Assembly (NCBI GenBank): GCA_027459745.1
Contig: DAIDHL010000007.1
Span: 1-57,382 of the forward strand
From: Candidatus Levyibacteriota bacterium
GTDB lineage: Bacteria > Patescibacteriota > Microgenomatia > Levybacterales > UBA12049
DNA length: 57,382 nt
Reading direction: 5' to 3'
The first letter of the stretch is position 1; each line of letters starts with the position of its first letter. Positions 14,122 to 48,101 of the stretch are shown in pieces. A program made the position numbers and the translations under genes. The notes under the pieces were generated by a model, which was not told where the DNA came from, did no database searches, and saw nothing but the letters and a program-made list of their open reading frames with translations.

Positions 14122-14751
14122 ATGATCAATATTGATCAGCTTAAGGAATTTATAAAAACCAACTTATTTGGTTCATCATTAATTTTTTTAGGTCTGATTT
14201 TTGTATTAGGGAGTTTGTTTATTTCGGTCAAGCCCAATGAGCAAGCCTTAGTGACTAGTGATAAGATTACTCCGGCCACAGATTTTCATTTAAATATTTC
14301 TCCAACAGACTTGCCTGAAATTAAAGTAGATATCGAGGGAGCCGTAGTAAATCCAGGTGTGTATACGTTACCGGCTAGTAGTCGAGTACAAGATGCCGTA
14401 CAGGCAGCAGGTGGTTTTAGCTCACAGGCGGATGAAACTAAAATTACCAGCGGATTAAATCTGGCGGCCAAAATAAACGATGCCAGCAAAATATATATTC
14501 CTGTCTTAGGGGATGGTCAAGACGTTGTCATGGCTGGGACGAGCAGTTCGGATAGTCAGTTTTTTGGTGGAAAGGTGAATCTTAATACTGCCTCAGAATC
14601 TGAATTAGATGCATTACCGGGTATTGGTCCAGTCACTGCGCAAAAGATAATCTCAAATCGTCCTTATTCTCAAGTATCTGACTTACAAGCTAAGAAAATA
14701 GTAAAAAGCAATGTCTATACCCAGATCGAAGATAAAGTCACGACACAATGA
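14122..14751 (+). CDS. comEA: Competence protein ComEA (membrane-anchored, SLBB-like plus helix-hairpin-helix DNA-binding domain)
   Basis: N-terminal TM segment. C-terminal VNLNTASESELDALPGIGPVTAQKIISNRPY HhH motif. TATACT (14110-14115) lies 6 nt upstream of the ATG. Confidence 0.85.
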   Translation: MINIDQLKEFIKTNLFGSSLIFLGLIFVLGSLFISVKPNEQALVTSDKITPATDFHLNISPTDLPEIKVDIEGAVVNPGVYTLPASSRVQDAVQAAGGFSSQADETKITSGLNLAAKINDASKIYIPVLGDGQDVVMAGTSSSDSQFFGGKVNLNTASESELDALPGIGPVTAQKIISNRPYSQVSDLQAKKIVKSNVYTQIEDKVTTQ

Positions 14752-14769
14752 AGTAGGGCTAAATATTTT

Positions 14770-16038
14770 ATGCGTAAGTATGTTGTTTTTTGGCTAATTA
14801 TTATCTTTGTATTGGGTGGGCGTTTAGTCTTCTATTTTCTTCAGGAAGCAAGATTACAGGATGGTCAGCTAATGCAAGGAGTTGGAATAGTACAAAGTCA
14901 ACCTAAGATTAGCGGACACAAGCAAAGTTTTAGCTTAAAAATTCAGGATTATGTAATTTATATTACAACCGTGAGTAAGGAAAAGTTATGGTATGGAGAA
15001 GCAGTTAATATTGCCGGTAAAATAAGAATAAATAACACAACAAAAAACTCCTATTTGACGATTCCGCAAGCTTCAGTAAGTGTTAATGATCAGCAATCAG
15101 TCTTGTCGACTTTGACTAATAGCCTACGTAAGCATGTTTACAAAATTTATCTTGTCATTTTGCCGGCTGATTATGCAGCTCTGCTGATGGGCATTGTATT
15201 TGGTGTACAGCAGCCAATGAGTAATAACTTCCTGACTGATTTAAAGAACGCAGGAGTGATGCATGTTATTGCTGCTTCTGGTATGAATATTACTTTGATT
15301 GGGGGTATGGTTATGAGCTTATCACGTAAATATTTTCAACGCCACCTAGCCATTATTCTCAGCTTGTTGGTTATTTTTTTCTATACTGCACTGGCTGGAT
15401 TTCAATCCTCGATTGTACGAGCAGCTATTATGGGAGCACTGGCCTTTAGCGCTAACTTAACCGGTCGCCAAAAACAAAGTATTTACATATTACTGTTAAC
15501 CGCTGTAGGAATGCTGGTATTTAACCCAGGTTGGTTGGTAGATATTGGTTTTCAGTTATCTTTTGGTGCCACTGCAGGGATATTACTTATAAAACCATTA
15601 ATCGATCAGTTGACACATAAATGGTCACAGGGAGGTCTGTCTATCATAGACGATGTTAGTACCACTGTAGTTGCGCAAATCGCTACAACGCCCATTCTAT
15701 TGTCAAATTTTGGTTATTTTAACCCTTTATCTGTTGTCATAAATGCTTTTGTTTTATGGACAGTGCCGCCGTTAATGCTATTGGGTGGTGTAGGGGCTTT
15801 TGTTAGTTATATTTGGGCTGATTTAGCGGAGGTTTTTATTTATTTGAGTTATCCCATTCTGTGGTACTTTGTTAGCATTATTAGTATTTCGACTAATTTT
15901 GATACTGTATTTGTAGTGCAAAATATTACTGGTGTTTTTAACTTGGGCTACTATTTATTATTGGGAGGTATACTATTAATAGTTACTAAGAAGAGAAGTC
16001 AACCCAAAGCCTATTCAAAACTTAAGCATTTGCACTAG
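14770..16038 (+). CDS. comEC: ComEC/Rec2-family DNA uptake channel, short form (no metallo-beta-lactamase domain)
   Basis: Polytopic protein with the competence-domain pattern (GVMHVIAASGMNITLIGG, SIVRAAIMG). Only 422 aa. Confidence 0.8.
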   Translation: MRKYVVFWLIIIFVLGGRLVFYFLQEARLQDGQLMQGVGIVQSQPKISGHKQSFSLKIQDYVIYITTVSKEKLWYGEAVNIAGKIRINNTTKNSYLTIPQASVSVNDQQSVLSTLTNSLRKHVYKIYLVILPADYAALLMGIVFGVQQPMSNNFLTDLKNAGVMHVIAASGMNITLIGGMVMSLSRKYFQRHLAIILSLLVIFFYTALAGFQSSIVRAAIMGALAFSANLTGRQKQSIYILLLTAVGMLVFNPGWLVDIGFQLSFGATAGILLIKPLIDQLTHKWSQGGLSIIDDVSTTVVAQIATTPILLSNFGYFNPLSVVINAFVLWTVPPLMLLGGVGAFVSYIWADLAEVFIYLSYPILWYFVSIISISTNFDTVFVVQNITGVFNLGYYLLLGGILLIVTKKRSQPKAYSKLKHLH

Positions 16039-16811
16039 CCGTTGGTATTAGAAAAGGGGAGAGAGAAACTAAAAGTTGTGCCTTTGCCTATTTCTGAACT
16101 GACATTGACGTTACCTTTATGTGCTTCAATGATGCTCTTGACAAAGTACAAACCCAAGCCACTGCTATTGGCTGTTTTTGGTCCGACTTGAGAGAATTTT
16201 TTGAAAAGCAGAGAAATCTGTTCTTGATCAAGTCCTTCGCCTGAATCTGTCACATTGATAGTAACAAAATGATTATCTAACTGGACCGTTACATCAATCA
16301 TGCCTTTCTCGGGAGTAAACTTGAGAGCGTTGTATAGCAAGTTGTCTAAAGCATGAGAGATATAGTCTTTGTCAAAGCGAAAAGAAGGAAGTGGTTCTTT
16401 GATATCGCTATGCATCTCTATGTGTCTTTCATGAGCCAAAGGTTGTAATAAGTTAATCCTTTCTTCAACCAGACTTTTGATATCATTAGGCTTCTTTTGT
16501 AAATTGAAGATACCAGATTGCAAACGTGAGGTATCTAACAATAAACTAACATATTCTAGCAGCTGCAGTGATTGGCTATTTATCAGCTTAAGCAAATCGG
16601 TTTTTTTCTGAGGATCAATTTGTCCTGTATCCGAGATTAGGAGACTGGCAGCGGCTTTGATAGAAGAAAGCGGACTGCGCAGTTCATGAATCATAAACAG
16701 ATTTAAGTCTTGCTTTTCTTGTTGTTTATGCTTCTCTTTGTCTAAAAGAAAAGAAAAAATAATGGCCAAAAAACCAAAAATGAGAGTAGTTATGGTGAGC
16801 AGTTGTACCAT
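16035..16811 (-). CDS. Sensor histidine kinase (single TM, DHp + HATPase_c, no obvious sensor domain)
   Basis: H-box FMIHELRSPLSSI. N-box LDNLLYNALKFT. G-boxes DSGEGL and GLGLYFVKSIIEAHKG. Confidence 0.9.
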   Translation of the reverse strand: MVQLLTITTLIFGFLAIIFSFLLDKEKHKQQEKQDLNLFMIHELRSPLSSIKAAASLLISDTGQIDPQKKTDLLKLINSQSLQLLEYVSLLLDTSRLQSGIFNLQKKPNDIKSLVEERINLLQPLAHERHIEMHSDIKEPLPSFRFDKDYISHALDNLLYNALKFTPEKGMIDVTVQLDNHFVTINVTDSGEGLDQEQISLLFKKFSQVGPKTANSSGLGLYFVKSIIEAHKGNVNVSSEIGKGTTFSFSLPFSNTNG

Positions 16812-16831
16812 AATATATTTAAGTTGTTATA

Positions 16832-17221
16832 TTAAGATTGAGCCTGTTCAGCTTTTGATTCCTGGGTGAGGCTTTTTATTTTGGCTAAAAGGTCTTTGGG
16901 TTCAATTTGATATTTGAGCAAATAATCAACAGCGCCTTGGTTAATGGCTTGCTGCATGAGTTCGGGTTTATAAAAATTGGAGAAGAGTACAACGGGGATA
17001 TTTTTCGTTTCTTCGTTTTGCTTCAATGTGGCTAATACTTCATTGCCTTGAATATCTGGCAACACTTGATCGAGTAAAATAAAATCTGGTTTTTCTGTTT
17101 GAGCCAAGTTGAGACCGGATCTCCCGTCAGAGGCCGTGATAACCTGATAGTTTTCTGAAGTAAGTGCGGTAGAGATAACAGTTATCAATGCAGGGTCGTC
17201 ATCAATCATCAATATTTTCAT
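16832..17221 (-). CDS. Single-domain response regulator (CheY-like receiver only)
   Basis: MKILMIDDD...DFILLDQVLPD...K receiver pattern. Start set at ATG 17221, because the track's TTG start (17260) is part of a TTGCAT -35 box. Confidence 0.85.
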   Translation of the reverse strand: MKILMIDDDPALITVISTALTSENYQVITASDGRSGLNLAQTEKPDFILLDQVLPDIQGNEVLATLKQNEETKNIPVVLFSNFYKPELMQQAINQGAVDYLLKYQIEPKDLLAKIKSLTQESKAEQAQS

Positions 17222-17231
17222 AGCTAGTTCC

Positions 17232-17260
17232 AACTTAGCAAGAATACTCAGCAAATGCAA
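17232..17260 (-). promoter_or_regulatory. Sigma70-like promoter of the response regulator/kinase operon
   Basis: Minus strand reads TTGCAT (17260..17255), 17 nt spacer, TAAGTT (17237..17232), then 10 nt to the ATG at 17221. Confidence 0.5.
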
Positions 17261-31296: not shown

Positions 31297-31527
31297 CTAA
31301 GCAGTTTTTTGTTGAATACCTAATAGCCAAAGAACGGCTTCTTTTTTATATCGGCGATCACCTCGAGTGTTGATACGAATGGCTGGTAATTTACCTCGCT
31401 TGCCCCATCTCTTAATGGTAAGAGGAGAAACGCGTAAGATTTCGGCTACTTCACGAACTGTCAATAAATCGGGTAAAGACTGGATGGAGAGTTGGTTGTT
31501 ATTGTTACTAATACTTTGGTCGCTCAT
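31297..31527 (-). CDS. Small excisionase/MerR-type helix-turn-helix DNA-binding protein (76 aa)
   Basis: LTVREVAEILRVSPLTIKRWGKRGKLPAIRINTRGDRRYKKEAV. Clear paralog of the N-terminus of the 3220-aa protein (LTVQEAANYLHVSTQTLRRWDESSKLVSIRTQGNQRRYTIKQL). Confidence 0.8.
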   Translation of the reverse strand: MSDQSISNNNNQLSIQSLPDLLTVREVAEILRVSPLTIKRWGKRGKLPAIRINTRGDRRYKKEAVLWLLGIQQKTA

Positions 31528-37036: not shown

Positions 37037-37849
37037 CTAGATAACGAGAATAAAATAACTTACGGCGATGCCGATGATAATCAAAAGCAACATGACCGAG
37101 ATATTAAAAACAATTCCAGCCCAAATTAACTTACTTGCCAAGGGATTGCGTCCTAAGGCCTCAATACCTGAGGTGGCAATGCGGCCAAAATAGCCTATGC
37201 CTAACAGAAAAGAAAATACCACTACCAGGGCGGCGGCGATATAGCGAATAATAGTGGCAGGGGAAACATACCCAGTGTTAATAATCTGTTGAAAAGAAGA
37301 AAAAACATTTTGGGTTTTAGTATTAATAGGTTGAGAACGTAAAGTAAAAGTAATGTTAGCTAAAATTAGTCCAGGTTTTTGTTTATTGGAATTATCATAG
37401 TTTTCCAAAGCAGTACCTATCACATAGCCATCTTCTGTTGCCTTTTGTGCTATTCCGGGAGTGTTTGATGTAGTCAAAATATCGCCAGTTTGGATTTTAC
37501 CATTGGCGGTATTTACTAGAACATAAGCCTTACCTTCATGAATGATCGGATAAGAATATTTTGATATAGAAAGAGGGTTTTCCAGAGAAACAGATGGGTT
37601 TTTTATCACCACACCTATGGCTGTAGGGTCATAAGCTACATTGCTCAGCTTGTATTCATGTGAGCTTAAGCTAACTACAGAACCAGGTTGCACATTCTGT
37701 CCTGGTATATCGACATAAATTGCTACTCCCGTAGACAATGTTTGCGCAAAAACTGATGTCATAGGAGACAGAAATTCTAACAAAAGAAGTAATAAAAAAA
37801 GAGAGATTATAGGACTTTTTTTAGCAAAAAGATGTATAAGTTTTAACAC
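37037..37849 (-). CDS. Fusion protein in the atpE position: signal peptide + fibre-type extracellular module + C-terminal ATP synthase c-subunit-like helical hairpin
   Basis: The C-terminus LGIGYFGRIATSGIEALGRNPLASKLIWAGIVFNISVMLLLIIIGIAV resembles c subunits (G-rich helix 1, R-N/Q-P loop, helix 2), but helix 2 contains no Glu or Asp. The middle region (YVDIPGQNVQPGSVV...GKIQTGDILTTSNTPGIAQKATEDGYVIGTALENY) matches a module in both giant proteins. Start set at GTG 37849, preceded by a GAGGA SD. The track extends to TTG 37960. Confidence 0.65.
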   Translation of the reverse strand: MLKLIHLFAKKSPIISLFLLLLLLEFLSPMTSVFAQTLSTGVAIYVDIPGQNVQPGSVVSLSSHEYKLSNVAYDPTAIGVVIKNPSVSLENPLSISKYSYPIIHEGKAYVLVNTANGKIQTGDILTTSNTPGIAQKATEDGYVIGTALENYDNSNKQKPGLILANITFTLRSQPINTKTQNVFSSFQQIINTGYVSPATIIRYIAAALVVVFSFLLGIGYFGRIATSGIEALGRNPLASKLIWAGIVFNISVMLLLIIIGIAVSYFILVI

Positions 37850-38020
37850 AAATTTATCCTCTTCTTTTACTCTAGTGAAAAGAATTGTAAAAGTCAACCA
37901 AAGTTTAGCCTCAGATGTATGCTTAATAATCATTGACAGCGTCGTGAAAAATTGATTCAATTAAATAAGCAACAAATATTTAGTTTTAGACTCAAAATTG
38001 TATAAGTTTCTGACTAAGTT

Positions 38021-41000
38021 ATGAAAGACCTGTCCCTGTCCAAAGAAAGTGTACAAAAATTGACCGTTCAAGAAGCGGCAAATTATTTGCATGTCTCGAC
38101 TCAAACACTTCGTCGTTGGGATGAAAGTAGTAAATTAGTCTCCATCCGAACTCAAGGAAATCAGCGCCGTTATACTATCAAACAACTACGGGCCTTTAAA
38201 AAGTTATTACTGAAAAAGAATCCTCGCAGGGCCTTACAAAAATTAGCCCAAGAAGCTAACTTGCCTCAAACAGAAGAAATGCCTATTTCCACTGCAGAGC
38301 AAAATTTGGTAGTGCCGAAAATGGATCTTTCCTATACGGCCGAAGAAGATCTGCCACAAGAGCAATATTTAGGTCTATCAACTATAGCTGAACGTTATGC
38401 CTGGGAACAAGACAGACTGCGTGATCTGAATGAGCGAATTGCGGCTTATCAGCCTCCCGCTGATTTAATTTCCAGTGAAAATCTTTTTGCACAGGAATCA
38501 GAAGAAGCTAACAAAAAATATAAAAATCTATCTAAATATATCATTTTAACCTCAGCTGGTTTGGTTTTTACTTTATTTCTACTCAGTTCGCTTCTAATTT
38601 TTAAGCCAGAGTTATTAGGTGCTAGTTGGATGAATAATAATCTGTTTAAATCCACAGTCGCTCAGTTAGGTTTAGGTAAAAATAATTTCCAAGCTGTGCT
38701 CGGCGCTGCCAGTATCAATCCTGATTTACAATTCACAGTCTCGATCCCTTCTTTATTTAAACAAGAAACCATATTTTCTGCTTCAGTTAGTGCGCAACAA
38801 AATTTAACTGTAGGTCAGGCTTTAACTGCAAATGGTTTATCTAACTTGAATGGAGGGATAACCACCAATAATGCCAATATTGATGCAGGCGTGGGTAGCG
38901 TAACTGCAGCCAATTTGTTGTATGGCGTTAAGGCTGGTTCGGGTATTAGTATCAGCGCGGGGCAGACTCCCACGATTAGTTCGACGATCACGCAAACAAG
39001 TTTGCAAGGACAAACCGGAGCCTTAACTTTAAATGCTGGATCTGGTATTTCCATTGATGGGTTAAAGATCTCAGCCAATGATCTAGGATCTAGCCAAAAT
39101 ATTTTTAAGAATATAGCAGTCACCGGACAAAATACAATTACTGCTGGAAATAACAACGATACACTTACTTTTGCCCAGGGGGCAGGAATTACTCTGACCA
39201 CAGATTCAGCCAATAAAATTTTAACAATCGCTGCTTCAGCTGGTACAGGTGGAAATGGTCAGTGGCTGATCAATGGTACGAGCCTGTACTACACAGGTGG
39301 CAATATTGGTATAGGCACTGCAGCTCCTTTGGGTTTACTTGATGTGCAAGGGGCATCTTCGATTACTGGAATGGCAGCAGGAATTATCAATCAAACTGGG
39401 AGTGGAGATGTTTTTACAGCCAGTTCTTCGGGAGTGACTGATTTTGTTATAAAAAATAATGGTACGATACAGATGCCTGGTTTATCGACTGGCATTGCTC
39501 ATTTTGATGCCAATGGCATCTTGAGCAGTAGTCAGGTTGCTCTGGCCAGTGGAGACGTGATTGGTACATTGCCGATTAATCGCGGTGGTACCAATACTAC
39601 CTATCTGGGCCAGGCAGGCGCGATTGCTTACTCTAACGGAACTTACTATGATTTCACTACCCAGGGAACGGCAAATCAATGTCTAGTATCCAATGGCTCG
39701 GGAGCGCCAGGATGGGGAAATTGTATTTTAGGAGTAAATTATTGGCAACAAGGGAGTGGGGCAATCTCACCAGGGAATGAGACGAATGACGTCTTGATCG
39801 GGAACACCGCCACTAGCTCGGCGGCTTTTGCGTTTTCAGGTGTACTGGCAAACACGCGTACAGCGAGTATCAGTGGTAACTTATCTATAGCTGTTCCCAC
39901 TGGAGTAAGTGGTTCCAACAGTTTAAATATTTTCAATGGGGGGTCACTGTCTTTCAAAGTCTCACCTGGAGGCAACAGTGGTTTGAATTCCAGTTTCGTT
40001 TTGAACAGTAATGGTAGTGTCCAATTGCCAAATTTAACTACAGGTGTAGCTCATCTTAGCTCAAATGGCATATTAAGTAGCACTTTGATAGATTTAACGA
40101 GTGCTGCCGACCTAACAGGAATTTTGCCCATCAGCTTTGGTGGTACTAATACAGGTACTTTGGGCAGTGCAGGTACGGTTGCTTACTCTGATGGCACCAG
40201 CTATAACTTTACTGTTCAAGGAAATCCCGGCCAGGTTTTAATTTCAAACGGCTCTAGTGCGCCTTCTTGGGTAAGCTCGGGTTCGGTTGGTACTAATTAC
40301 TGGAATGAAGGAAATGGAGTGATTACTCCTGCTGATAATTCAGTAGATCTCTTGACAGGTGGGCAATCGACGTCTTCAGCAGCTTTTGCCTTTATCGGTA
40401 CGACGACCAATACTCGTTCTGCCTCTATTTCGGGCAATCTTTCTTTAAGTGTTCCAATTGGAAATAATTCCGGTGATAGCGTAAATATGTTAAACGGCGG
40501 ATCGCTGAGTTTCAATTTGTCTGCTGGCGGTGATAGCGGTTTAGCATCATTGTTCAAGTTAAATAGTAATGGAAGCGTACAATTTCCTAGTCTAAGTACC
40601 GGAATTGCTCATCTGAGTAATACAGGTGTGTTATCCAGTAGCTTGGTTAATCTTGCTGCGGATGTAACAGGGGTGTTGCCGTTAGCTAATGGTGGAACTA
40701 ATTCTAACTCGGTTGGTACAGCTGGTACGGTAGTTTATTCAAATGGAAGTTCATATCAATTTACGACTGCTGGTAATTTGGGGGATGTTTTAATTTCTAA
40801 CGGCACAGGTGCTCCCACATGGACTAGCTCAAGTTCAGTCGGGGTAAATTATTGGAACGAACTTGCTGGTACTGTTTCACCAAAATATTTAAGTAATGAT
40901 TTATTACTGGGTGGAACATCCACACAAAGCGCTAAGTTTGCATTTCTCAACAATTCAGGTATAGGTAATCCGACTGCTTCGATCTCAGGTAATTTGGCTT

Positions 41001-44000
41001 TGTCTGTGCCAACAGGGGCTAATCCTAATGCTGCCTTGAATGTCTTAAATGGAGGTAGCTTATCTTTGCAAACTAGTCCCGGTGGAGATAATGGTTTAAA
41101 TACTGCTTTATATTTAGCTGCGGGCGGTAGTGTAGGGATTGGTAACACCAATCCTAAAGCGAAACTAGATATTAGTGGGGCAGTTCGTTTAGGAGCAGCA
41201 GGTGGGAATAATGATATTCTAAATACGTCTGCCGCAGTTGGAGCTCCTTCCGGAGATTTGTATTGGGGTAACGAGGTTTTGTGTAATTCTACTGGTAATT
41301 GTGTAGGATCAGGGGGTACGGTTGGGGGGAATGGCACGGCTAATTACTTAGCTAAATTTACCGGTACCTTCAACTTAGGTAACGGTGATATTTATGACAA
41401 TGGAAATATTGGCATTGGTACTACCAATCCTTTGGCTCTCTTGCATATCGAAGGTGGTAATACCGGAGGGAATGCGGTAGCTATATTTAATCAAATCGGC
41501 AGTTCTAATAATGATATCTTTACGGCCAGTTCAGCTGGTATCACTAAATTTACGATTGCCAATGATGGTACGATTACAGATAAGAAATATTCAACTGGTC
41601 TGGCCCATATCAATTCTAATGGTAGCTTCAGTAGTAGTGCTGTTGACTTGACTAGTAGTGATGTCACAAATATATTGCCTATTGCCAAAGGAGGTACTGG
41701 CAATATGTCTTTAGGGTCATATGGTGGGGTAGCCTGGGCTGATACAGTAGACAATGAAATAGCATACACCGCTGCTGCGACATCCCAGGGGCAAGTCTTA
41801 GTTTGGGGCCCCTTTGGCTATCCAGTGTGGCAGAATTCTTCCAGCGTAGGAGCTAATGATTGGCAAATAATTGGAGGAGCGCTATCGCCTATAAATAATG
41901 CCAATGATTTCTTGCTTGGTTCTTCCTCTACCAGTAGTGCGGTATTTGCTGTAACAAAGATGAGTTACAATGATCCATCTTATATTTTCCACTCAAATTT
42001 ATCCTTGACTGTTCCTGGAGGGTCATCTGGAACTCAAACCTTACAAATACTTAATGGAAGTTCTTTAACCACACAGACAGCAAATGTGGGCAATACTAGT
42101 TTTATAAATGATGTTTTCGATATCAATAATAATGGTACGATCAGTATTGGCCAATCAGGGGGTAGCTCTACTTTAAATGTCGGTGGTACTGGTAATTTTA
42201 CAAGTAATCTATCAATTGGAGCCAGTGGAAAAACAGCTTTGTTGTTAACAAATAGCGGTAGTAATACTGGCTTAACGATTGCTGGTACTAATGGAAATGT
42301 CGATTTGTATAATTCAGGTTCACAAATTTTAGGGACAGACAATAATTTTAGTATAAATGGAGGAATAAACAATGGTAATGCAGCCTTAAGTGTAAACCAA
42401 AATGGAGCTTTGACAAACGATATCTTTACTGCCAGTAGTTCGGGTGTTACTAAATTTACGATTGCCAATGATGGCACAATTACTGCAGGTGGTACAGCTT
42501 ACGCTACTGGTTCAATTGGCATTGCTCATTTTTCTGCCTCAGGAGTATTAAGTAGTGGCCCAGTACATCTGGAGAGTAATGAGGTTACGGGAACTTTGGG
42601 TATCAATGATGGAGGAACCAATACTACCTCGATCGGCTTGGGTGGTACAGTTGTTTATTCTGATGGCACGCGTTATCAGTTTACTGGCGTAGGGACAACT
42701 GGGCAATGTTTAATTTCCAATGGCTCAGGTGCACCGGCATGGACCAATTGTGGAAGTGGAATTTGGAATCAAGCTAGTGGTGCCATCTATGCCAATAATT
42801 CGACTCAGGATTTATTGTTAGGGGGTAATAGTACATCGAGTGCAAAGTTCGCCTTTTTGAATGATAATTCAGGTATACCAGTCGCAAGTATTTCAGCTAA
42901 CAGTACAAATAACGCAACTTACTTATCAGGAGCAGGTGTGTTGGGGACTACTAATACTCAGACTTTAACGCTGGGGTCAAGTAGTACTGGAAATATAATT
43001 GTGAATCCTCGTAATAGTGCGGTAGGTGGTTACTTGGCGCCTGCAACTGATAATGTAACTGACCTAGGGGCGACTGGCTCTGCCAGATTTAGAAACTTAT
43101 TTTTAGGACCTGGATCTTTACATATACAATGTACAGTTACTGAAGGCTGTGGAAGCGTTAGTCAATTATATGATTATGCTTTGGGAGTTAACCCCGCCAA
43201 TAATAATTTTGCTTTTAGGGTCAATGGTAATGAAGAGGTGTCGATTAATAGCGCTGGAACATTAGGTTTAGCGGGTGCCAGCGCGACTGGTGGCAATTAT
43301 ATTACCAGTTCTAATTTTAACGTCACGACGGCCGGTGCAGTTAACGCAGCCAGCACTATCACCGGTACAAACATTAATGGCACAACTGGCATTAATTCCG
43401 GCATAGGTGCAGGGACACAAAGAATTGATAATAACGGTAATTTAGTGAACATTGGCAATATCACAGCTTCGGGTACGATTAATTTTACAGGTTTAGGAAA
43501 TGGAGTTTTACAAGCTTCTTCTGGCTTGTTGTCAGCTACCACTGTTGGTGTGTCTAGTGGTGGAACTGGGGTAAGTAGTGTTGGTGCTGCTGGTTCTCTT
43601 GCATATAGTAATGGGAGTAGTTATTCGTTTACTACCGCTGGTACCACTGGACAATGTTTGATATCCAATGGTTCAAGTGCACCGACTTGGGGAAGTTGTG
43701 GATCAGGTGGAGGGGGAGGTACTAGTTTGTTTGCCGATGGAAATGGTTCTATATATCCGCTGAATGCCACAGAAGATTTGTTCATTGGTGGAACAAGTAC
43801 ATCCTCAGCCAAGTTTGCTTTCTTAAATAATAATACTGGTACGCCAGTTGCCTCTATTTCTGCAAACTCAGGTAATAATGCTACGTTTATATCTGGTGAT
43901 GGTTATATCAGTGCTACCAATAAGCAAAATCTAAATTTTGGTAACAACCTAACATACAATTCGACGGGTAATCTATTATTTAACACCAATGGTGTTGGTT

Positions 44001-47000
44001 ATGCAGGATTTGGGACTACCAATCCAGTTGTGCCATTACAACTTACTGTAGGTGGTACAGCTTCTGTCAATGTTTCGGATGCAGGGACAGCTTTATTAAT
44101 TTCGGCTACCAATACGGCAGGTAGTTGGTCAGCAGCGGCTATCCAATCCGGAACAACTGGTAATGCGACTTTATATTTAGGCAATAGCAGTAATGAAACA
44201 GCAGGGGCAGTACGTTATGACAACGCCAATAATGTTTTGCGATTATTTACTAACGGTACTGACAAATTTGATATCAACAGTACTGGGAACTTGAGTGCAG
44301 TTGGCTCACTTAGCGGATTAACCGGTTTAGCATCATCAGGTACAATTAATTTTTCCGGGTTAGGAACTGGAGCAGTAGTTGCCTCCTCTGGTATATTATC
44401 TGCAGGTACTTTGAGTGTCGGTAATGGGGGGACTAATGCCGTAAGTGTTGGGTCTGCTGGCTCAATTGCTTATAGCACTGGTGCTGCCTATGCATTTACA
44501 GCAGTTGGGTCTACTAATCAGTGTTTGTTGTCTAATGGATCAGGTACGCCAACCTGGGGAAGTTGTGGGGGAAGTAGTTTGTTTGTGAACAATGCAACAG
44601 ACAGTACTTTAACTAGAAGTGGAAGTGGTCCATATACCCTGGGTTTAAATCTAGGTAATGCTAATACCTGGACAGCACTTCAAACCTTCAATGGAGGATT
44701 AACAGTAGCAGGAACAACCAATATCAACACAAGTGGAACGTCCAGTACTAATATAGGAACATCAACCAACACCGGGAATGTAGCTATTGGGAACAGTACA
44801 GGCACATTTGCCTTAACATCCAATGGTGGATTAAACGTAACCACAGGGGGAGCACTAACAGGAGTAGCATCTTTGGATACTATCACCACGAGTGCAACTG
44901 CTTTAACATTTGCCAATGCAGGATCACTAACCGCAAGTGGGACAAATACATTAACACTCAATGGTTCATCCACCGGCAATATTCAGTTTTTCAGTGGAAG
45001 CAATACATTAAGTAGTGCCGGTTCCTTAACTCTAGCGGGGAATATATCAGCAGCCGGAACAACAGGACTAACCTTATCAGGTAATGGTGCGGCTATAAAA
45101 TTTACCGGAGCAGTCAATAATTACAACTCGATTACCACGGCAAATAATAATAATTTGGCTCTTTTACCCAATGGTACTGGAAATGTCGGTATTGGTACCA
45201 CTACACCGGGTTCATTACTGACGGTAGCTGGGAATATTTCAAACATTGCTAATGACAATGCCAATTATGCTCCTACCTATGTTAGTCAAAATAGTGATTC
45301 TAATTTGAATACTCCATATGGTTTATTCGTACAAGGTAATTATGTTTATTTAACCAATGACAATACCACTGGTAAGCTATCGGTTTATAATATATCCAGT
45401 GGGGTTCCTGTGTATGTGGGTCAGAATAGTGATTCTAATTTAAATAGTCCATTAGCAGTAGCGGTGGCAGGTAGATATGCATATGTGCCAAGTGAAGGAA
45501 CAAACAAATTAGTTACTTATGATATATCTACTGGTACACCAGTTTATGTAGGACAAAATAGTGATGCTAATTTGAGCAACCCGTGGGATATAGCCGTAGC
45601 AGGTAGATATGCTTATGTAGCAAGTTATGGTACGAATAAGTTAGTAAGTTATGATATCACTAGTGGGACACCGGTCTATGTGGGACAGAATAGTGATAGT
45701 AATCTATCAAACCCCACAGCGGTTTATGTATCCGGACGATATGCTTATGTGATAAGCAGTGGGACAAATAAATTATCGGTTTATGACATTTCTAGTGGGA
45801 TACCGGTCTATGTGGGACAGAACAGTGATAGTAATATTAGTAGTTCTTCAGGCGTTTATACAGAAGGTAAATATGCTTATGTATTAAATAGTAGTAAGTT
45901 ACTAGTTTATGACATTTCTAGTGGGACACCGGTCTATGTGGGACAGAATAGTGATAGTAATATATCTTCAGCCTTTGGATTTACTGTTTCTGGTAGGTAT
46001 GCCTTTATTAGCACTTCTTTTCCAAGCAACATTGCAGTATATGATCTTTATAGCGGGACTCCTGTCTATATAGGTAAAAATACTGATTCTAATTTGCTTT
46101 ATCCTCGTAGTGTTATGGTTTTTGGTAATAATATTTATGTGGCTAATGGAGGGGATAATAAGGTGGATATATATAATGTGGGGGGAATCCAAACTACTTC
46201 GATTATTGCTCATTCAGCTGAATTAGGCAATTTGAGTATAGACACTAATGCCCAGATTGCTAATAGTTTAAGTATAGGAGGAGGATTGAATATAGGTAGT
46301 GGAGGACTGTACAGCAAAGGCAGTATTTCGACTAATTCTAACATGCTTATTCAAGGCGCAGGTCTTTGTGTCACGAGCAATGCCGCTGGTTGTCAAAAAC
46401 TTTATGCTGCTGGGACGATTGATGCGACAAGTAGCTTGGTAACCGGTGCCGACGTGGCGGAAAATTATGTTTCCTCTCAAACTCTATTGCCCGGAGAAGT
46501 AGTAGCTATGGCCAACGATGGTAATTCTAACGCAGTTGTTGCTACGACCTCTATTAATCAGAATGGATTATTGGGAGTTGTTTCTACCAATCCTGGTGTA
46601 ACAGTTAATTCTGGTGCCCAAATGGATTCTACCCACCCTAATATTTATCCTATTGCTTTGGTAGGACGCATTCCGGTTCGAGTATCAAGTGCTAATGGTC
46701 CAATTAGCGTGGGTGATCCATTGACGTCATCCAGTATACCTGGTGTGGCTGTCAAAGCAACTAAACCGGGGGTAATTATCGGACGCGCGTTGGAGTCATA
46801 TACTAATTCGGATCAATATATTATTGGTACAATCACTGCTTATTCCAATGTGTCATATTATGATCCGACTGCTGCACAATATGCGATTACCAGTAATGGT
46901 TTATTAGCCGTTACTAATGGTAATAGTTCTACTAGTTCAAACACTAATAGTGTCGCAACAGCGAGTGCTATATTGGGAGATGCCACTAGTTCTACACAGT

Positions 47001-47683
47001 CAGCTAGCTTGACTGATCAAGTTACTGCTTTACAACAACAAGTAAGTCAGAACAGTGAACAGATTAGCTCTTTGCAAAAATTGCTTAATCAAGTCGGTTC
47101 AACTTCAGCAAGTTTAGAACAATTGACTTCACTGCTAGCCTCGTCGTCTGCTTTGCCCACGAACTTTGCCACAGGGCAGGATTTGAATATTCAATCTGCG
47201 ACCATATCAGCAGATTTGCAAGTCTTGGGTAAGACCACGGTTAATGATCTAGGGGTCACCGGAAATATCACTACTGGGCTGTTAACCATTGATGGTTTGA
47301 ATGGTAGTATAGATAACATTGCTCAACCATTGAAATTGCAACCAGAAGCCTTAACTACGATTGAGATGGAAGGTGGAAATGTCGTTATTGCTACCAATGG
47401 GGATATTACTACTAAAGGTGTGATTAATGTAGCTAAGGTCAATGTGGATGAATCAAATCTATCAACGGCTAGTGTAGGACAGGGTACAATTAAAGCAGGT
47501 AGTACGTCGGTTATGATTAATACCACTTCTGTGACCGATAAATCACATATCTTTGTCACAGTCAGAGGAAGTAATGCAGTCCCATTATCCGTTGCAACCA
47601 CAGTATCCGGTAAATCATTTAGTGTGGTGATGCCCACAGCTCAATCCTCAGATGTAAAGTTTGATTGGTGGATAGTGAATTAA
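38021..47683 (+). CDS. Giant surface fibre protein (3220 aa): N-terminal excisionase/MerR-type HTH, one TM segment, ~185-aa repeat modules, 7-bladed LVIVD-type beta-propeller, conserved C-terminal modules ending in WWIVN
   Basis: HTH at aa 14-59. TM segment YIILTSAGLVFTLFLLSSLLIF (nt 38537-38602). Recurrent LPxxxGGTN, GQxLxSNGSGAPxW and STSSAKFAF motifs. Seven PVYVGQNSDSNL...YAYV...KLxVYDISSGT repeats. DVAENY...GDPLTSSSIPGVAVKAT module. Terminal KFDWWIVN. Confidence 0.92.
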   Translation: MKDLSLSKESVQKLTVQEAANYLHVSTQTLRRWDESSKLVSIRTQGNQRRYTIKQLRAFKKLLLKKNPRRALQKLAQEANLPQTEEMPISTAEQNLVVPKMDLSYTAEEDLPQEQYLGLSTIAERYAWEQDRLRDLNERIAAYQPPADLISSENLFAQESEEANKKYKNLSKYIILTSAGLVFTLFLLSSLLIFKPELLGASWMNNNLFKSTVAQLGLGKNNFQAVLGAASINPDLQFTVSIPSLFKQETIFSASVSAQQNLTVGQALTANGLSNLNGGITTNNANIDAGVGSVTAANLLYGVKAGSGISISAGQTPTISSTITQTSLQGQTGALTLNAGSGISIDGLKISANDLGSSQNIFKNIAVTGQNTITAGNNNDTLTFAQGAGITLTTDSANKILTIAASAGTGGNGQWLINGTSLYYTGGNIGIGTAAPLGLLDVQGASSITGMAAGIINQTGSGDVFTASSSGVTDFVIKNNGTIQMPGLSTGIAHFDANGILSSSQVALASGDVIGTLPINRGGTNTTYLGQAGAIAYSNGTYYDFTTQGTANQCLVSNGSGAPGWGNCILGVNYWQQGSGAISPGNETNDVLIGNTATSSAAFAFSGVLANTRTASISGNLSIAVPTGVSGSNSLNIFNGGSLSFKVSPGGNSGLNSSFVLNSNGSVQLPNLTTGVAHLSSNGILSSTLIDLTSAADLTGILPISFGGTNTGTLGSAGTVAYSDGTSYNFTVQGNPGQVLISNGSSAPSWVSSGSVGTNYWNEGNGVITPADNSVDLLTGGQSTSSAAFAFIGTTTNTRSASISGNLSLSVPIGNNSGDSVNMLNGGSLSFNLSAGGDSGLASLFKLNSNGSVQFPSLSTGIAHLSNTGVLSSSLVNLAADVTGVLPLANGGTNSNSVGTAGTVVYSNGSSYQFTTAGNLGDVLISNGTGAPTWTSSSSVGVNYWNELAGTVSPKYLSNDLLLGGTSTQSAKFAFLNNSGIGNPTASISGNLALSVPTGANPNAALNVLNGGSLSLQTSPGGDNGLNTALYLAAGGSVGIGNTNPKAKLDISGAVRLGAAGGNNDILNTSAAVGAPSGDLYWGNEVLCNSTGNCVGSGGTVGGNGTANYLAKFTGTFNLGNGDIYDNGNIGIGTTNPLALLHIEGGNTGGNAVAIFNQIGSSNNDIFTASSAGITKFTIANDGTITDKKYSTGLAHINSNGSFSSSAVDLTSSDVTNILPIAKGGTGNMSLGSYGGVAWADTVDNEIAYTAAATSQGQVLVWGPFGYPVWQNSSSVGANDWQIIGGALSPINNANDFLLGSSSTSSAVFAVTKMSYNDPSYIFHSNLSLTVPGGSSGTQTLQILNGSSLTTQTANVGNTSFINDVFDINNNGTISIGQSGGSSTLNVGGTGNFTSNLSIGASGKTALLLTNSGSNTGLTIAGTNGNVDLYNSGSQILGTDNNFSINGGINNGNAALSVNQNGALTNDIFTASSSGVTKFTIANDGTITAGGTAYATGSIGIAHFSASGVLSSGPVHLESNEVTGTLGINDGGTNTTSIGLGGTVVYSDGTRYQFTGVGTTGQCLISNGSGAPAWTNCGSGIWNQASGAIYANNSTQDLLLGGNSTSSAKFAFLNDNSGIPVASISANSTNNATYLSGAGVLGTTNTQTLTLGSSSTGNIIVNPRNSAVGGYLAPATDNVTDLGATGSARFRNLFLGPGSLHIQCTVTEGCGSVSQLYDYALGVNPANNNFAFRVNGNEEVSINSAGTLGLAGASATGGNYITSSNFNVTTAGAVNAASTITGTNINGTTGINSGIGAGTQRIDNNGNLVNIGNITASGTINFTGLGNGVLQASSGLLSATTVGVSSGGTGVSSVGAAGSLAYSNGSSYSFTTAGTTGQCLISNGSSAPTWGSCGSGGGGGTSLFADGNGSIYPLNATEDLFIGGTSTSSAKFAFLNNNTGTPVASISANSGNNATFISGDGYISATNKQNLNFGNNLTYNSTGNLLFNTNGVGYAGFGTTNPVVPLQLTVGGTASVNVSDAGTALLISATNTAGSWSAAAIQSGTTGNATLYLGNSSNETAGAVRYDNANNVLRLFTNGTDKFDINSTGNLSAVGSLSGLTGLASSGTINFSGLGTGAVVASSGILSAGTLSVGNGGTNAVSVGSAGSIAYSTGAAYAFTAVGSTNQCLLSNGSGTPTWGSCGGSSLFVNNATDSTLTRSGSGPYTLGLNLGNANTWTALQTFNGGLTVAGTTNINTSGTSSTNIGTSTNTGNVAIGNSTGTFALTSNGGLNVTTGGALTGVASLDTITTSATALTFANAGSLTASGTNTLTLNGSSTGNIQFFSGSNTLSSAGSLTLAGNISAAGTTGLTLSGNGAAIKFTGAVNNYNSITTANNNNLALLPNGTGNVGIGTTTPGSLLTVAGNISNIANDNANYAPTYVSQNSDSNLNTPYGLFVQGNYVYLTNDNTTGKLSVYNISSGVPVYVGQNSDSNLNSPLAVAVAGRYAYVPSEGTNKLVTYDISTGTPVYVGQNSDANLSNPWDIAVAGRYAYVASYGTNKLVSYDITSGTPVYVGQNSDSNLSNPTAVYVSGRYAYVISSGTNKLSVYDISSGIPVYVGQNSDSNISSSSGVYTEGKYAYVLNSSKLLVYDISSGTPVYVGQNSDSNISSAFGFTVSGRYAFISTSFPSNIAVYDLYSGTPVYIGKNTDSNLLYPRSVMVFGNNIYVANGGDNKVDIYNVGGIQTTSIIAHSAELGNLSIDTNAQIANSLSIGGGLNIGSGGLYSKGSISTNSNMLIQGAGLCVTSNAAGCQKLYAAGTIDATSSLVTGADVAENYVSSQTLLPGEVVAMANDGNSNAVVATTSINQNGLLGVVSTNPGVTVNSGAQMDSTHPNIYPIALVGRIPVRVSSANGPISVGDPLTSSSIPGVAVKATKPGVIIGRALESYTNSDQYIIGTITAYSNVSYYDPTAAQYAITSNGLLAVTNGNSSTSSNTNSVATASAILGDATSSTQSASLTDQVTALQQQVSQNSEQISSLQKLLNQVGSTSASLEQLTSLLASSSALPTNFATGQDLNIQSATISADLQVLGKTTVNDLGVTGNITTGLLTIDGLNGSIDNIAQPLKLQPEALTTIEMEGGNVVIATNGDITTKGVINVAKVNVDESNLSTASVGQGTIKAGSTSVMINTTSVTDKSHIFVTVRGSNAVPLSVATTVSGKSFSVVMPTAQSSDVKFDWWIVN
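39731..44600 (+). repeat. Array of ~6-7 divergent ~185-aa repeat modules inside the 3220-aa gene
   Basis: Modules restart at about nt 39731 (GVNYWQQGSGAISP), 40289 (GTNYWNEGNGVITP), 40841 (GVNYWNELAGTVSP), 41848, 42760, 43720 and 44574. Each contains the STSSA(A/K)FAF and LPxxxGGTN...YSNGxxYxFT...SNGSGAPxW blocks. Boundaries are approximate. Confidence 0.75.
45266..46186 (+). repeat. Seven tandem ~43-aa LVIVD-like beta-propeller blades with partly identical DNA
   Basis: A repeat unit of ~129 nt. The 40+ nt string ccggtctatgtgggacagaatagtgatagtaat recurs almost exactly at ~45672, ~45803 and ~45929. Confidence 0.8.
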
Positions 47684-47723: not shown

Positions 47724-48101
47724 ATGGGGAGAAAATACCTACAGTTAAATGATATATCATCATATAAACGAGCATTTATACTCTCAAACCTTGTTTGGAA
47801 AATTGTTCTAACTTGGGGAGTGTTTAAGAAAAAAACAGTTGGTAAACAATTTGTTAAGGCAGTAGACTCAGTCTTAGCAAATATTGCAGAAGGATTTGGA
47901 AGATTTAGTAAAAAGGATAAAATTAAGTTTTATTATTATAGTTTAGTTTCAGTAAAAGAAAGTCTTGATTGGAATGAGAAATCTAAACGAAGATCATTGT
48001 TAAATAGTGGTCAATATTTGCAGATTCTAGAAGAACTACAGGGGCTAGCAAAAGAGATCCATCAATTAATTAAATTCACAAACGAAAAGTTAACAATTTA
48101 G
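47724..48101 (+). CDS. Four-helix-bundle protein of the '23S rRNA intervening sequence protein' / Avd-like family
   Basis: Family signature VDSVLANIAEGFGRFSKKDKIKFYYYSLVSVKESLDW. 125 aa. Lies 40 nt downstream of the giant gene. Confidence 0.8.
   Translation: MGRKYLQLNDISSYKRAFILSNLVWKIVLTWGVFKKKTVGKQFVKAVDSVLANIAEGFGRFSKKDKIKFYYYSLVSVKESLDWNEKSKRRSLLNSGQYLQILEELQGLAKEIHQLIKFTNEKLTI

What the first reader, a model, noticed from the sequence alone, without database searches (positions are those of the whole stretch)
38021..47683. 3220-aa fibre protein that begins with a cytoplasmic excisionase/MerR-type HTH
The architecture, read directly, is as follows. HTH (aa 14-59). Charged linker. A single TM segment (aa ~173-194). 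About 3000 aa of extracellular repeats. A 7-bladed propeller. Conserved C-terminal modules. A small DNA-binding domain inside the cell is thus physically linked to a fibre long enough to reach another cell. For a putative episymbiotic small-genome bacterium, this is a plausible one-component system that senses or transduces host contact. It could also be released by regulated proteolysis. It shares the design principle with the 1483-aa protein, which uses a different DNA-binding fold. I am not aware of a described family with this architecture.
Basis: partly seen in the sequence, partly recalled or inferred. Interest (0 to 1): 0.85.

Follow-up and report, generated by a model that had tools for sequence, protein, structure and literature searches.

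The report
Membrane-tethered DNA-binding giant surface fibre
A 3220-residue surface fibre of a tiny candidate-phyla-radiation (CPR) bacterium really does start with a small DNA-binding domain inside the cell, the design recurs in many related genomes, and conserved repeats in front of these genes suggest the fibre regulates its own gene.

Summary
Window 38021-47683 (+) is one uninterrupted 3220-codon ORF. It encodes a MerR/BldC-type winged helix-turn-helix (wHTH, aa 13-64), a linker, the protein's only hydrophobic helix (aa 173-194), and about 3000 aa of Gly/Ser/Thr/Asn-rich ectodomain. The ectodomain holds ~185-aa repeats, a 7-blade LVIVD propeller, a Peptidase_G2-related module, a coiled coil and a C-terminal domain.

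It is not an artefact. A sister Levyibacteriota genome has the same start and architecture. About 20 further CPR loci have wHTH-TM-long ORF in the same place, divergent from an ATP-synthase operon. Of the 150 best relatives of the N-terminus, 99 have one TM after the HTH.

The HTH keeps BldC's DNA-contact residues. The 150 bp upstream of these genes carry AAAsTTrGACA repeats, often exactly 10 bp apart, at 8 times the density of other non-coding DNA.

Best reading: a membrane-tethered, BldC-like autoregulator fused to a phage-tail-fibre-like adhesin. Host-contact sensing and proteolytic release are untested. It fits the known class of transmembrane transcription regulators, but I found no description of this fibre-linked CPR family or its operator.

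The parts
38021..47683 (+). Whole gene: 3220-aa single-pass membrane protein, from the cytoplasmic winged HTH (wHTH) through one TM helix to a giant fibre ectodomain
   Evidence: orthologue with the same start in L003
38057..38212 (+). Cytoplasmic winged helix-turn-helix of MerR/BldC/excisionase type (aa 13-64)
   Evidence: Pfam MerR, HTH_17 and MerR_1 above gathering cut-offs. PDB phmmer best hit is BldC 6amk, E 1.8e-5. AF2 pLDDT 87-92. Foldseek best hit is BldC, target TM-score 0.72-0.77. T29, R32, W33, G46, R49 and R50 correspond to BldC DNA or interface residues.
38213..38536 (+). Cytoplasmic linker (aa 65-172), charged and mostly low-confidence, with one possible helix at aa 120-141
   Evidence: It is 71% identical to the sister species, against 92% for the HTH. 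Weak phmmer hits of aa 115-168 to other HTHs are not backed by the model.
38537..38602 (+). Single transmembrane helix (aa 173-194), preceded by the Lys-rich stretch KKYKNLSK
   Evidence: It is the only Kyte-Doolittle window above 1.6 in 3220 aa. It is modelled as a helix over aa 158-194.
38690..39250 (+). Conserved fibre base just outside the membrane (aa 224-410). It starts with the motif VL[GA]xxS..FxV[NS][IV]PSxF and continues as LTASNVLYxxxAGxGIxI..GQxPTISNTG..
   Evidence: The motif is present in 37 of 150 HTH relatives, 40-70 aa after the TM. It also occurs behind plain signal peptides.
39290..44620 (+). About eight divergent copies of a ~185-aa repeat (aa 424-2200), rich in Gly/Ser/Thr/Asn, with no Pfam match
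   Evidence: tile-against-self BLAST; Pfam negative
45257..46195 (+). Seven-bladed LVIVD beta-propeller (aa ~2413-2725), 44-aa period
   Evidence: seven Y[VI][SG][QK]N[ST]D blade starts; Pfam LVIVD 21.9 bits against 20.2; homologues with 4-6 LVIVD hits
46412..46867 (+). Module related to the Peptidase_G2 / intramolecular-chaperone region of phage tail spikes (aa 2798-2949). It is also found in the 1483-aa protein and in the upstream neighbour.
   Evidence: 41% identity to the 1483-aa protein at aa 859-974 and 39% to the upstream neighbour o307 at aa 88-201. It aligns with regions of P0158, P0165, P0183, P0187 and P0193 that overlap their Pfam Peptidase_G2 hits. There is no direct Pfam hit in this protein.
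46946..47140 (+). Predicted coiled coil (aa 2976-3040)
   Evidence: weak matches only: the reovirus sigma-1 coiled coil, E 0.015, and NPV_P10
47141..47680 (+). C-terminal domain (aa 3041-3220) with no family match, no LPXTG motif and no second TM
   Evidence: sequence read directly
37999..38009 (-). Candidate operator half-site 12 nt upstream of the ATG. It reads AAACTTATACA on the - strand, which is the family motif AAAsTTrGACA with GG changed to AT.
   Evidence: It is identical in the sister species.
37833..37843 (-). Second identical copy of the 11-mer, at the start of the divergent gene
37037..37849 (-). Conserved divergent partner gene (called o307 here). It has a signal peptide, a domain homologous to giant aa 2820-2940, and a C-terminal two-helix hairpin resembling an ATP-synthase c subunit.

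Best explanation
The gene encodes a type-II (N-terminus inside) single-pass membrane protein.

Outside the cell it is a very long fibre, probably trimeric, built like a phage tail fibre: repeats, a distal 7-blade propeller, a G2-like module and a coiled coil. It most likely serves as an adhesin.

Inside the cell it ends in a BldC-type winged HTH that still binds DNA. Its likely target is a set of short repeats between the promoter and start codon of its own gene. In orthologues these are AAAsTTrGACA, typically two direct copies 10 bp apart plus an inverted copy. In this window the copies read AAACTTATACA.

BldC-type domains are monomers that bind only cooperatively, head to tail, on direct repeats. 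Clustering of the N-termini when fibres oligomerise in the membrane would therefore switch binding on. That would give feedback control of a very costly gene, and perhaps of the divergent o307/ATP-synthase operon.

The architecture, the conservation, the DNA-binding signature and the upstream repeats are shown. Three steps are inferred: that this HTH binds those repeats, that the fibre is a trimer, and that assembly is the signal.
For: Architecture.

Fold and sequence closest to BldC.

DNA-contact residues. BldC residues T27, R30, W31, R47 and R48 contact DNA, and G44 is at the head-tail interface (PMC5859096). They map to T29, R32, W33, R49, R50 and G46, which are invariant in the family alignment.

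Selection. The HTH is the best-conserved part between sister species, 92% identical against 61-83% elsewhere.

Recurrence. Of the 150 best relatives out of 1.84 billion proteins, 99 have exactly one TM after the HTH. About 36 CPR loci show an HTH at aa 2-15, a TM at aa 75-200 and ORFs of more than 1000-2000 aa. Twenty of them have the same synteny and a single HTH.

Operator-like repeats. There are 36 motif hits in 3000 bp upstream. That is 12.0 per kb, against 1.44 per kb in other non-ORF DNA and 0.28 per kb in ORFs of the same loci. Thirteen of 20 loci have at least two copies. Five loci have direct repeats exactly 10 bp apart. The motif follows single-HTH paralogues that are not next to the atp operon, while tandem-HTH paralogues carry a different repeat.

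Fibre nature. Relatives carry Peptidase_S74, K1-lyase_C and Peptidase_G2, and some are named 'tail fiber domain-containing protein'.
Against: No binding data exist.

In this window the two 11-mers rank only about 14th-15th in a position-weight-matrix scan of the 57 kb, so they are not significant on their own.

The enrichment statistic is not corrected for shared ancestry of the loci.

A free-standing BldC-like protein is encoded nearby (31297..31527) and could be the real binder.

The same kind of ectodomain, and even the fibre-base motif, occurs behind ordinary signal peptides. The HTH is therefore not needed for fibre function.

The trimer rests on weak coiled-coil hits and on analogy. The ectodomain base could not be modelled.
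Confidence: 0.55

Rival explanations
1. Host-contact or mechanical sensor with regulated proteolysis. Binding or pulling on the fibre would trigger cleavage near or within the membrane. That would free the HTH to act as a soluble regulator, as in RsgI/SigI or Notch.
For: A conserved ~35-aa element sits 40-70 aa outside the TM in many family members. The TM contains Ser, Gly and Thr. There are precedents for long ectodomains that transmit force through autoproteolysis followed by intramembrane cleavage (10.1101/2023.06.27.546760).
Against: The juxtamembrane element also occurs behind plain signal peptides, so it is a fibre base rather than a signalling device. It has no invariant Asn-Pro or other known autoproteolytic signature. 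It has no fold match. No site-2 protease was found in the parts of the window that were annotated. A tethered HTH can reach DNA without release in a cell this small (inference).
Confidence: 0.15
2. Architectural tether. The HTH would bind chromosomal DNA to anchor the nucleoid, or this locus, to the envelope at fibre sites, without regulating transcription. The MerR-like wHTH of RacA anchors DNA to the cell pole in the same way.
For: RacA and Xis are among the structural matches. BldC-type domains bend DNA and form multimers on it. Relatives have 2 to 8 tandem HTHs before the TM, which suits avid DNA binding.
Against: The conserved repeats sit specifically between the promoter-like elements and the start codon of the gene itself. 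That is the position of an operator, not of scattered anchoring sites. No motif clusters occur elsewhere in the window.
Confidence: 0.15
3. The HTH is a protein-interaction or topogenic module that no longer binds DNA. Examples are RodZ, whose HTH binds MreB, or a folded plug that fixes the N-in orientation.
For: RodZ has the same outline of HTH, TM and an outside domain (established knowledge). An MreB gene is in the window. Fibres of the same kind work with plain signal anchors.
Against: The HTH is MerR/BldC type, not the XRE type of RodZ. The residues that contact DNA in BldC are the invariant ones. Conserved upstream repeats co-occur with the gene.
Confidence: 0.08
4. Artefact: a small HTH gene was fused to a fibre gene by misassembly, frameshift or wrong start choice.
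For: Giant repetitive genes in metagenome assemblies are prone to errors (general knowledge).
Against: The same junction occurs in an independent assembly of a sister species, in dozens of other loci and in 99 of 150 library relatives. A stop codon lies immediately upstream of the ATG.
Confidence: 0.02

Closest known systems
BldC of Streptomyces (68-aa MerR-like wHTH; PDB 6amk, 6ama)
   Same: It is the best sequence and fold match. The DNA-contact and head-tail interface residues are the same. It has no MerR coiled coil or effector domain. Direct repeats about one helical turn apart are the likely target.
   Different: BldC is a free cytoplasmic protein. Here the domain is the first 2% of a 3220-aa membrane protein. 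It scores 31.6-36 bits against the NCBIfam BldC cut-off of 77. The repeat sequence differs: AAAsTTrGACA against AATTnnnnC.
Transmembrane transcription regulators (TTRs: ToxR, TcpP, CadC, ChiS, TfoS; census in PMC10269533)
   Same: A DNA-binding domain is tethered to the cytoplasmic membrane by one TM, with the rest of the protein outside. Single-pass forms are the commonest (56%).
   Different: The classic members use OmpR-type or other HTHs and have small sensor domains. MerR, MerR_1 and HTH_17 make up 0.3-0.8% of the TTR DNA-binding domains counted. No Patescibacteria, no giant ectodomains and no fibre ectodomains are mentioned in the text or in the held supplements.
RsgI anti-sigma factors with SEAL domains (B. 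subtilis, Clostridium thermocellum)
   Same: They are single-pass proteins in which a long ectodomain that binds something insoluble is coupled to a cytoplasmic transcription output.
   Different: In RsgI the output is an anti-sigma domain, not an HTH. Signalling needs an autoproteolytic SEAL domain and the RasP protease. Neither was detected here.
RacA of B. subtilis
   Same: It has a MerR-like wHTH used to attach DNA to the envelope, and it is among the structural matches.
   Different: RacA is soluble and reaches the membrane through DivIVA. It binds GC-rich sites spread around the origin.
Phage tail fibres and tailspikes with C-terminal intramolecular chaperone domains (Peptidase_S74, Peptidase_G2, K1-lyase_C)
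   Same: Relatives of the ectodomain carry these domains, and some are named tail-fibre proteins. There is a coiled-coil segment and a distal propeller that could bind a receptor.
   Different: The proximal end is a TM helix in a cell membrane rather than a virion attachment domain. The giant itself has no direct Pfam or PHROGs tail-fibre hit.
RodZ
   Same: The outline is the same: cytoplasmic HTH, one TM, an extracytoplasmic domain.
   Different: RodZ has an XRE-type HTH_25 and a DUF4115 domain, and its HTH binds MreB rather than DNA. Neither domain is present here.

Membership tests
MerR-superfamily winged HTH (Pfam PF00376 / PF13411 / PF12728) | Score above the Pfam gathering cut-off | tested here: met
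   31.2 against 28.2, 26.0 against 21.6 and 29.8 against 27 on the full protein. Scores are higher on aa 1-200 alone.
MerR-superfamily winged HTH (Pfam PF00376 / PF13411 / PF12728) | Fold: beta strand, two helices, a two-stranded wing, then a helix | tested here: met
   AF2 gives E13-15, H16-23, H27-35, a wing ending in strand 49-52, and H53-64, with pLDDT 87-92. Foldseek matches BldC, RacA, Xis, SoxR and CueR.
Classical MerR regulators (MerR, CueR, SoxR, BmrR) | C-terminal antiparallel coiled-coil dimerisation helix and an effector-binding region | tested here: not met
   After the HTH come short helices, then low-confidence linker, then a TM. Matches to full-length MerR proteins have rmsd 15-20 A outside the HTH.
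BldC family (NCBIfam NF033787) | Score above the curated cut-off of 77 bits; a small stand-alone protein | tested here: not met
   31.6 bits on the whole protein and 36.0 bits on aa 1-200. The protein has 3220 aa.
BldC family (NCBIfam NF033787) | DNA-contact residues T27, R30, W31, R47, R48 and interface residue G44 | tested here: met
   They align to T29, R32, W33, R49, R50 and G46, all invariant in alignment A5. H46 is Q48 here and K26 is Q28.
Transmembrane transcription regulators (TTR, as defined in PMC10269533) | A recognised DNA-binding domain plus at least one TM segment in one polypeptide | tested here: met
Transmembrane transcription regulators (TTR, as defined in PMC10269533) | Binds DNA and regulates transcription while in the membrane | not testable with these tools
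   There is only indirect support, from conserved operator-like repeats upstream of orthologues.
ToxR-like receptors | OmpR-type winged helix (Trans_reg_C) | tested here: not met
   No Trans_reg_C hit.
RsgI/SEAL regulated-proteolysis sensors | An N-terminal anti-sigma domain, and a juxtamembrane SEAL domain with a conserved autocleavage site | tested here: not met
   There is no anti-sigma hit. The juxtamembrane motif has no invariant Asn-Pro. The model has low confidence and no fold match, so the SEAL fold itself remains unresolved.
RodZ | HTH_25 (XRE type) plus DUF4115 | tested here: not met
   Neither was found.
LVIVD beta-propeller | Pfam LVIVD above the cut-off, with repeated blades | tested here: met
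   21.9 bits against 20.2. Seven blades with a 44-aa period. Homologues have 4-6 LVIVD hits.
Phage-type fibres with an autocleaving intramolecular chaperone (Peptidase_G2 / S74) | A Pfam G2 or S74 hit that includes the cleavage region | tested here: inconclusive
   There is no direct hit. The module at aa 2798-2949 is homologous to segments of relatives that match only profile positions ~33-105 of 228 of Peptidase_G2. Cleavage is not shown.

The most novel reading that the evidence does not exclude
A lineage-wide CPR device in which a cell-surface fibre is wired directly to the chromosome. The assembly, tension or host-binding state of a fibre more than 3000 aa long would set how its own BldC-like N-termini cluster on 10-bp direct repeats. 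One polypeptide would thereby couple host attachment to transcription of the fibre gene and of the divergent o307/ATP-synthase operon.
Probability: 0.2. Interest if true: 0.85.

Novelty: new variant of a known kind. Interest (0 to 1): 0.68.

Why it matters
Candidate-phyla-radiation (CPR) bacteria have very few recognisable regulators, and how they sense hosts is unknown. A conserved family that joins a DNA-binding domain to the main surface fibres, with a candidate operator, gives a concrete and testable regulatory circuit for organisms that mostly cannot be grown. Gel-shift and reporter assays are possible with synthetic DNA alone.

It also extends transmembrane transcription regulators to ectodomains ten times larger than any discussed in the 2023 census. 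It suggests a simple principle: oligomerisation of a fibre controls cooperative binding of a monomeric HTH.

For annotation, these genes are currently labelled 'MerR family transcriptional regulator, partial' or 'hypothetical'. Both labels hide what they are.

Tried and rejected
1. The word-indexed homology search with aa 1-260 found nothing. The exhaustive HMMER search was needed instead.

2. The first HTH alignment was too diverse to derive DNA patterns. A narrower one worked.

3. A degenerate second HTH at aa 115-168 was suggested by weak phmmer hits. The model shows only a low-confidence helix there, so I dropped the idea.

4. I considered a tripartite signalling module of HTH, TM and juxtamembrane motif. 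The motif was absent from 120 non-HTH homologues of the C-terminal cassette. A profile search then found it behind plain signal peptides, so it is a fibre base and not HTH-specific.

5. The AF2 model of aa 165-445 has low confidence and no fold matches.

6. There is no direct Pfam Peptidase_G2 hit and no PHROGs tail-fibre hit for the giant. Only homology through intermediate proteins supports the link.

7. A position-weight-matrix scan shows that the window's own two 11-mers are not individually significant.

8. No sortase signal (LPXTG) occurs at the C-terminus, although a sortase gene is in the window.

9. Seven literature searches found no description of this family.

10. Cluster look-ups gave no names: all ten clusters were singletons.
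Full report
**What is in the window.** Positions 38021-47683 (+) form one ORF of 3220 codons. A TAA lies two codons before the ATG, so the N-terminus cannot be longer.

Residues 14-60 pass the gathering cut-offs of three Pfam models of the MerR superfamily: MerR 31.2 against 28.2, HTH_17 29.8 against 27, and MerR_1 26.0 against 21.6. NCBIfam ranks the BldC and excisionase models first. The BldC score of 31.6-36 bits is far below that family's cut-off of 77.

The best solved relatives by sequence are the two BldC structures, 6amk and 6ama, at E about 2e-5. An AlphaFold2 (AF2) model of aa 1-300 gives a confident winged helix-turn-helix (wHTH) at aa 13-64, pLDDT 87-92, and a long helix over aa 158-194. 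Foldseek puts BldC first, with target TM-score 0.72-0.77, rmsd 1.4-1.7 A and 40-42% identity. RacA, a mycobacteriophage Xis and RdfS follow.

The protein has exactly one strongly hydrophobic stretch, aa 174-192. The remaining ~3000 residues are 50% Gly, Ser, Thr and Asn. They contain:
- about eight copies of a ~185-aa unit, aa 424-2200;
- seven 44-aa LVIVD blades, aa 2420-2725;
- a ~150-aa module, aa 2798-2949, shared with two other proteins of the window;
- a coiled-coil-like stretch;
- a C-terminal domain with no LPXTG motif and no second anchor.

**Is it real?** ATP-synthase beta is 93% identical to that of a Candidatus Levyibacteriota genome assembled from a metagenome (a MAG). That MAG was assembled independently. 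It has an orthologue with the same first residues, MKDLSLSKESVQKLTVQEAA. Identity is 92% in the HTH, 71% in the linker, 61% in the TM and 75-83% over most of the ectodomain, falling to 40% in the last aligned stretch (aa 2001-2450). Its reading frame stays open for 2454 codons to the contig end.

An exhaustive HMMER search of 1.84 billion representative proteins with aa 1-260 gave 920 hits at E up to 0.001. Of the best 150, 99 have exactly one hydrophobic helix after the HTH. Their ectodomains range from a few residues to more than 5000; many of the short ones are contig fragments. Most of these relatives have two tandem HTHs, and one has eight.

A scan of one genome per species returned about 36 loci with an HTH at aa 2-15, a TM at aa 75-200 and ORFs of more than 1000-2000 aa, most running off the fetched DNA. 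Their record titles name Levyibacteriota, Woesebacteria, Amesbacteria, Microgenomatus, WWE3, Saccharimonadales and 'Patescibacteria group'. Many other MAGs are labelled 'uncultured Gammaproteobacteria'. The lower-ranking hits are small Streptomyces proteins without a TM, of the size and kind of BldC.

**A conserved locus.** Clustering the neighbours of those loci shows a repeated layout. In about 22 of 36 loci the wHTH-TM gene lies divergently next to a 253-275-aa gene. That gene is followed by atpF-like, atpH, atpA, atpG and atpD, exactly as in the window. All 20 syntenic orthologues used in the motif analysis below have a single HTH, like the window protein. The MAGs labelled Gammaproteobacteria share this synteny, so the label is probably wrong.

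**Does the HTH still bind DNA?** The BldC paper lists the residues that matter. T27, T29 and W31 contact phosphates. R30, and less firmly K26, contact bases in the major groove. H46, R47 and R48 of the wing sit in an AT-rich minor groove. G44 lies in the head-to-tail interface, and a G44E change abolishes binding (PMC5859096).

With the offset of +2, these become T29, R31, W33, R32, Q28, Q48, R49, R50 and G46. The columns T29, L30, R31, R32, W33, R43, T44, G46, R49, R50 and Y51 are invariant in the family alignment. The domain is also the most conserved part of the protein between sister species. This is what one expects of a working DNA-binding domain. It is hard to reconcile with a mere plug or spacer.

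**A candidate operator.** I lined up the 120 bp before the start codons of the syntenic orthologues. A short element recurs there: AAAsTTrGACAw.

Counted with a strict pattern (TT[GA]GACA or its complement), the 150 bp upstream of 20 orthologues hold 36 copies. That is 12.0 per kb, against 1.44 per kb in the other non-ORF DNA and 0.28 per kb in the ORFs of the same loci. Thirteen of the 20 loci have two or more copies.

The nominal Poisson probability is 3e-21. It is not corrected for common descent and should be read only as 'strong'.

The three A's before the core were not part of the pattern, yet they are 76-81% conserved.

In L010, L019, L026, L033 and L036 two direct copies lie exactly 10 bp apart. 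An inverted copy often follows some 10-40 bp downstream. The group sits between TTGACA/-10-like hexamers and the ATG.

The element also precedes single-HTH paralogues that are not next to an atp operon (L014, L023) or whose surroundings are uninformative (L009, L050, L059). Two tandem-HTH paralogues, L045 and L048, carry a different repeat, TTACCGCA. So the element follows the gene and its HTH type, not the ATP-synthase operon.

Direct repeats one helical turn apart are the binding mode established for BldC.

In the window itself the strict motif is absent. The exact 11-mer TGTATAAGTTT occurs twice, at 37833-37843 and 37999-38009. These are the only exact copies in 57 kb, and both are conserved in the sister species. 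Its complement, AAACTTATACA, is the family motif with GG replaced by AT. A matrix scan ranks these two sites only about 14th-15th in the window, so alone they prove nothing.

The window protein has Gln at position 28, where the motif-bearing orthologues have Lys (VSTKTLRRW). That position corresponds to BldC K26, which touches guanines. This is a single lineage, and I treat it as a hint only.

**The ectodomain.** Homologues of the last 820 residues are common in CPR genomes. They carry LVIVD, Peptidase_G2 and Peptidase_S74, and several are named 'tail fiber domain-containing protein'. None of the 120 listed has the HTH. Of the 104 that start with Met, 66 have an ordinary signal or anchor within the first 60 residues.

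Relatives found through the N-terminus carry Peptidase_S74, K1-lyase_C or Hint domains in their ectodomains.

The giant's module at aa 2798-2949 has no direct Pfam hit. It does align, at 32-38% identity, with segments of five relatives that overlap their Peptidase_G2 matches.

About 190 residues just outside the membrane are conserved among family members, starting with VL[GA]xxS..FxV[NS][IV]PSxF. The same base also follows plain signal peptides in other proteins. It is therefore the foot of a fibre family, not a signalling element tied to the HTH. It could not be modelled.

The picture is modular: a phage-tail-fibre-like adhesin that can be mounted on different anchors, one of which carries a DNA-binding domain. 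The 1483-aa protein of the window is a second example. It has two integrase SAM-like domains, then hydrophobic segments, then the same G2-like module.

**Mechanism.** I favour a membrane-tethered autoregulator.
- Shown: the topology elements, the DNA-binding signature, the recurrence, and the operator-like repeats at the gene's own promoter in many species.
- Inferred: that this HTH binds them; that the fibre is a trimer, which rests only on phage analogy and weak coiled-coil hits; and that bringing the N-termini together on oligomerisation enables the cooperative head-to-tail binding a monomeric BldC-type domain needs.

Such a loop would limit synthesis of a 3220-residue protein once enough fibres are in place. 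The locus is likely held at the membrane while the protein is being inserted, and the cell is tiny, so a tethered domain can plausibly reach its own promoter. The shared divergent region could also put the o307/atp operon under the same control.

There is no recognisable autocleavage motif, and no site-2 protease among the ORFs I scanned, which left out those from 51155 on.

A purely architectural DNA-membrane tether like RacA, or a RodZ-like protein-binding role, fits the operator position and the conserved contact residues less well.

**Comparison with what is known.** By definition the protein is a transmembrane transcription regulator (TTR). This class was surveyed in 2023: 50,302 proteins, 56% of them single-pass, with MerR, MerR_1 and HTH_17 making up 0.77, 0.70 and 0.30% of the DNA-binding domains (PMC10269533).

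That survey does not mention Patescibacteria, giant ectodomains or fibres in its text or held supplements. The preprint on giant genes does not contain the term 'helix-turn-helix'. The papers on SEAL and GAIN autoproteolysis do not mention HTH fusions.

Public annotation calls fragments of the family 'MerR family transcriptional regulator, partial' or 'helix-turn-helix domain-containing protein, partial'.

I therefore rate it a new variant of a known kind. It has a lineage-wide distribution, a conserved locus and a candidate operator, none of which I could find described.

Noticed in passing
window 37037-37849 (-), possibly starting at the GTG at 37849 rather than the TTG at 37960: The divergent neighbour (o307) has three parts: a signal peptide, a ~150-aa domain 39% identical to giant aa 2820-2940, and a C-terminal two-helix hairpin with the loop G[IV]EA[LI]GRNPLA. 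The hairpin's only PDB sequence hits are ATP-synthase c subunits, aligned over their full length but weakly (E 0.08-5). The gene sits where atpE would be, directly before atpF-like, atpH, atpA, atpG and atpD. The canonical ion-binding carboxylate of helix 2 is missing in the window protein and in all 20 orthologues with this hairpin; an Asn or His is conserved five residues earlier. No atpB was seen in the locus.
   Followed up: partly
window 31297-31527 (-): A free-standing 76-aa BldC/excisionase-like HTH gene lies directly after atpC. It scores 47 bits against the family HMM. It could be an alternative binder of the upstream repeats.
   Followed up: partly
window 4567-9018 (-): The 1483-aa protein has two integrase SAM-like (core-binding) domains at aa 8-215, hydrophobic segments at aa 264 and 360, and an ectodomain with the same G2-like module at aa 859-974. 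It is a second case of a DNA-binding-type fold fused to a surface protein in the same genome.
   Followed up: partly
loci L008-L036 (for example L010, L013, L022, L032): The order atpD-atpG-atpA-atpH-atpF-like-o307-like, then the divergent wHTH-TM fibre gene, is kept in about 22 of 36 loci. Sometimes a 312-aa or 575-aa gene is inserted. Many of these MAGs are titled 'uncultured Gammaproteobacteria', 'Sulfotelmatobacter' or 'Verrucomicrobiota' but share this CPR synteny, so the titles look wrong.
   Followed up: partly
L045 about 2080-2150 and L048 about 1450-1520 (upstream of tandem-HTH paralogues): A different repeated element, TTACCGCA with an inverted TGCG(T)TAA, precedes genes whose two HTHs have different recognition helices and wings. 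This suggests that HTH subtype and upstream repeat change together.
   Followed up: no
protein P0002 (623 aa): It has eight tandem MerR-type HTH domains followed by a single TM at aa 501. This is an extreme form of the family.
   Followed up: no
proteins P0006 (aa 838-1096) and P0082 (aa 1012-1288): Intein/Hint splicing domains lie inside the ectodomains of two wHTH-TM relatives.
   Followed up: no
window 14122-17260: This stretch holds ComEA-like (SLBB plus HHH_3) and ComEC-like competence genes. Next to them are a 258-aa histidine kinase without a predicted sensor region and a receiver-only response regulator.
   Followed up: no
window 47724-48101 (+): A gene for a '23S rRNA intervening sequence protein' family member (a four-helix-bundle protein) lies directly downstream of the giant gene.
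   Followed up: no
window 38064-38078 (+): A terminator-like hairpin followed by a T-rich run lies about 45 nt inside the coding region, within the HTH-coding part. It is a pattern match only.
   Followed up: no
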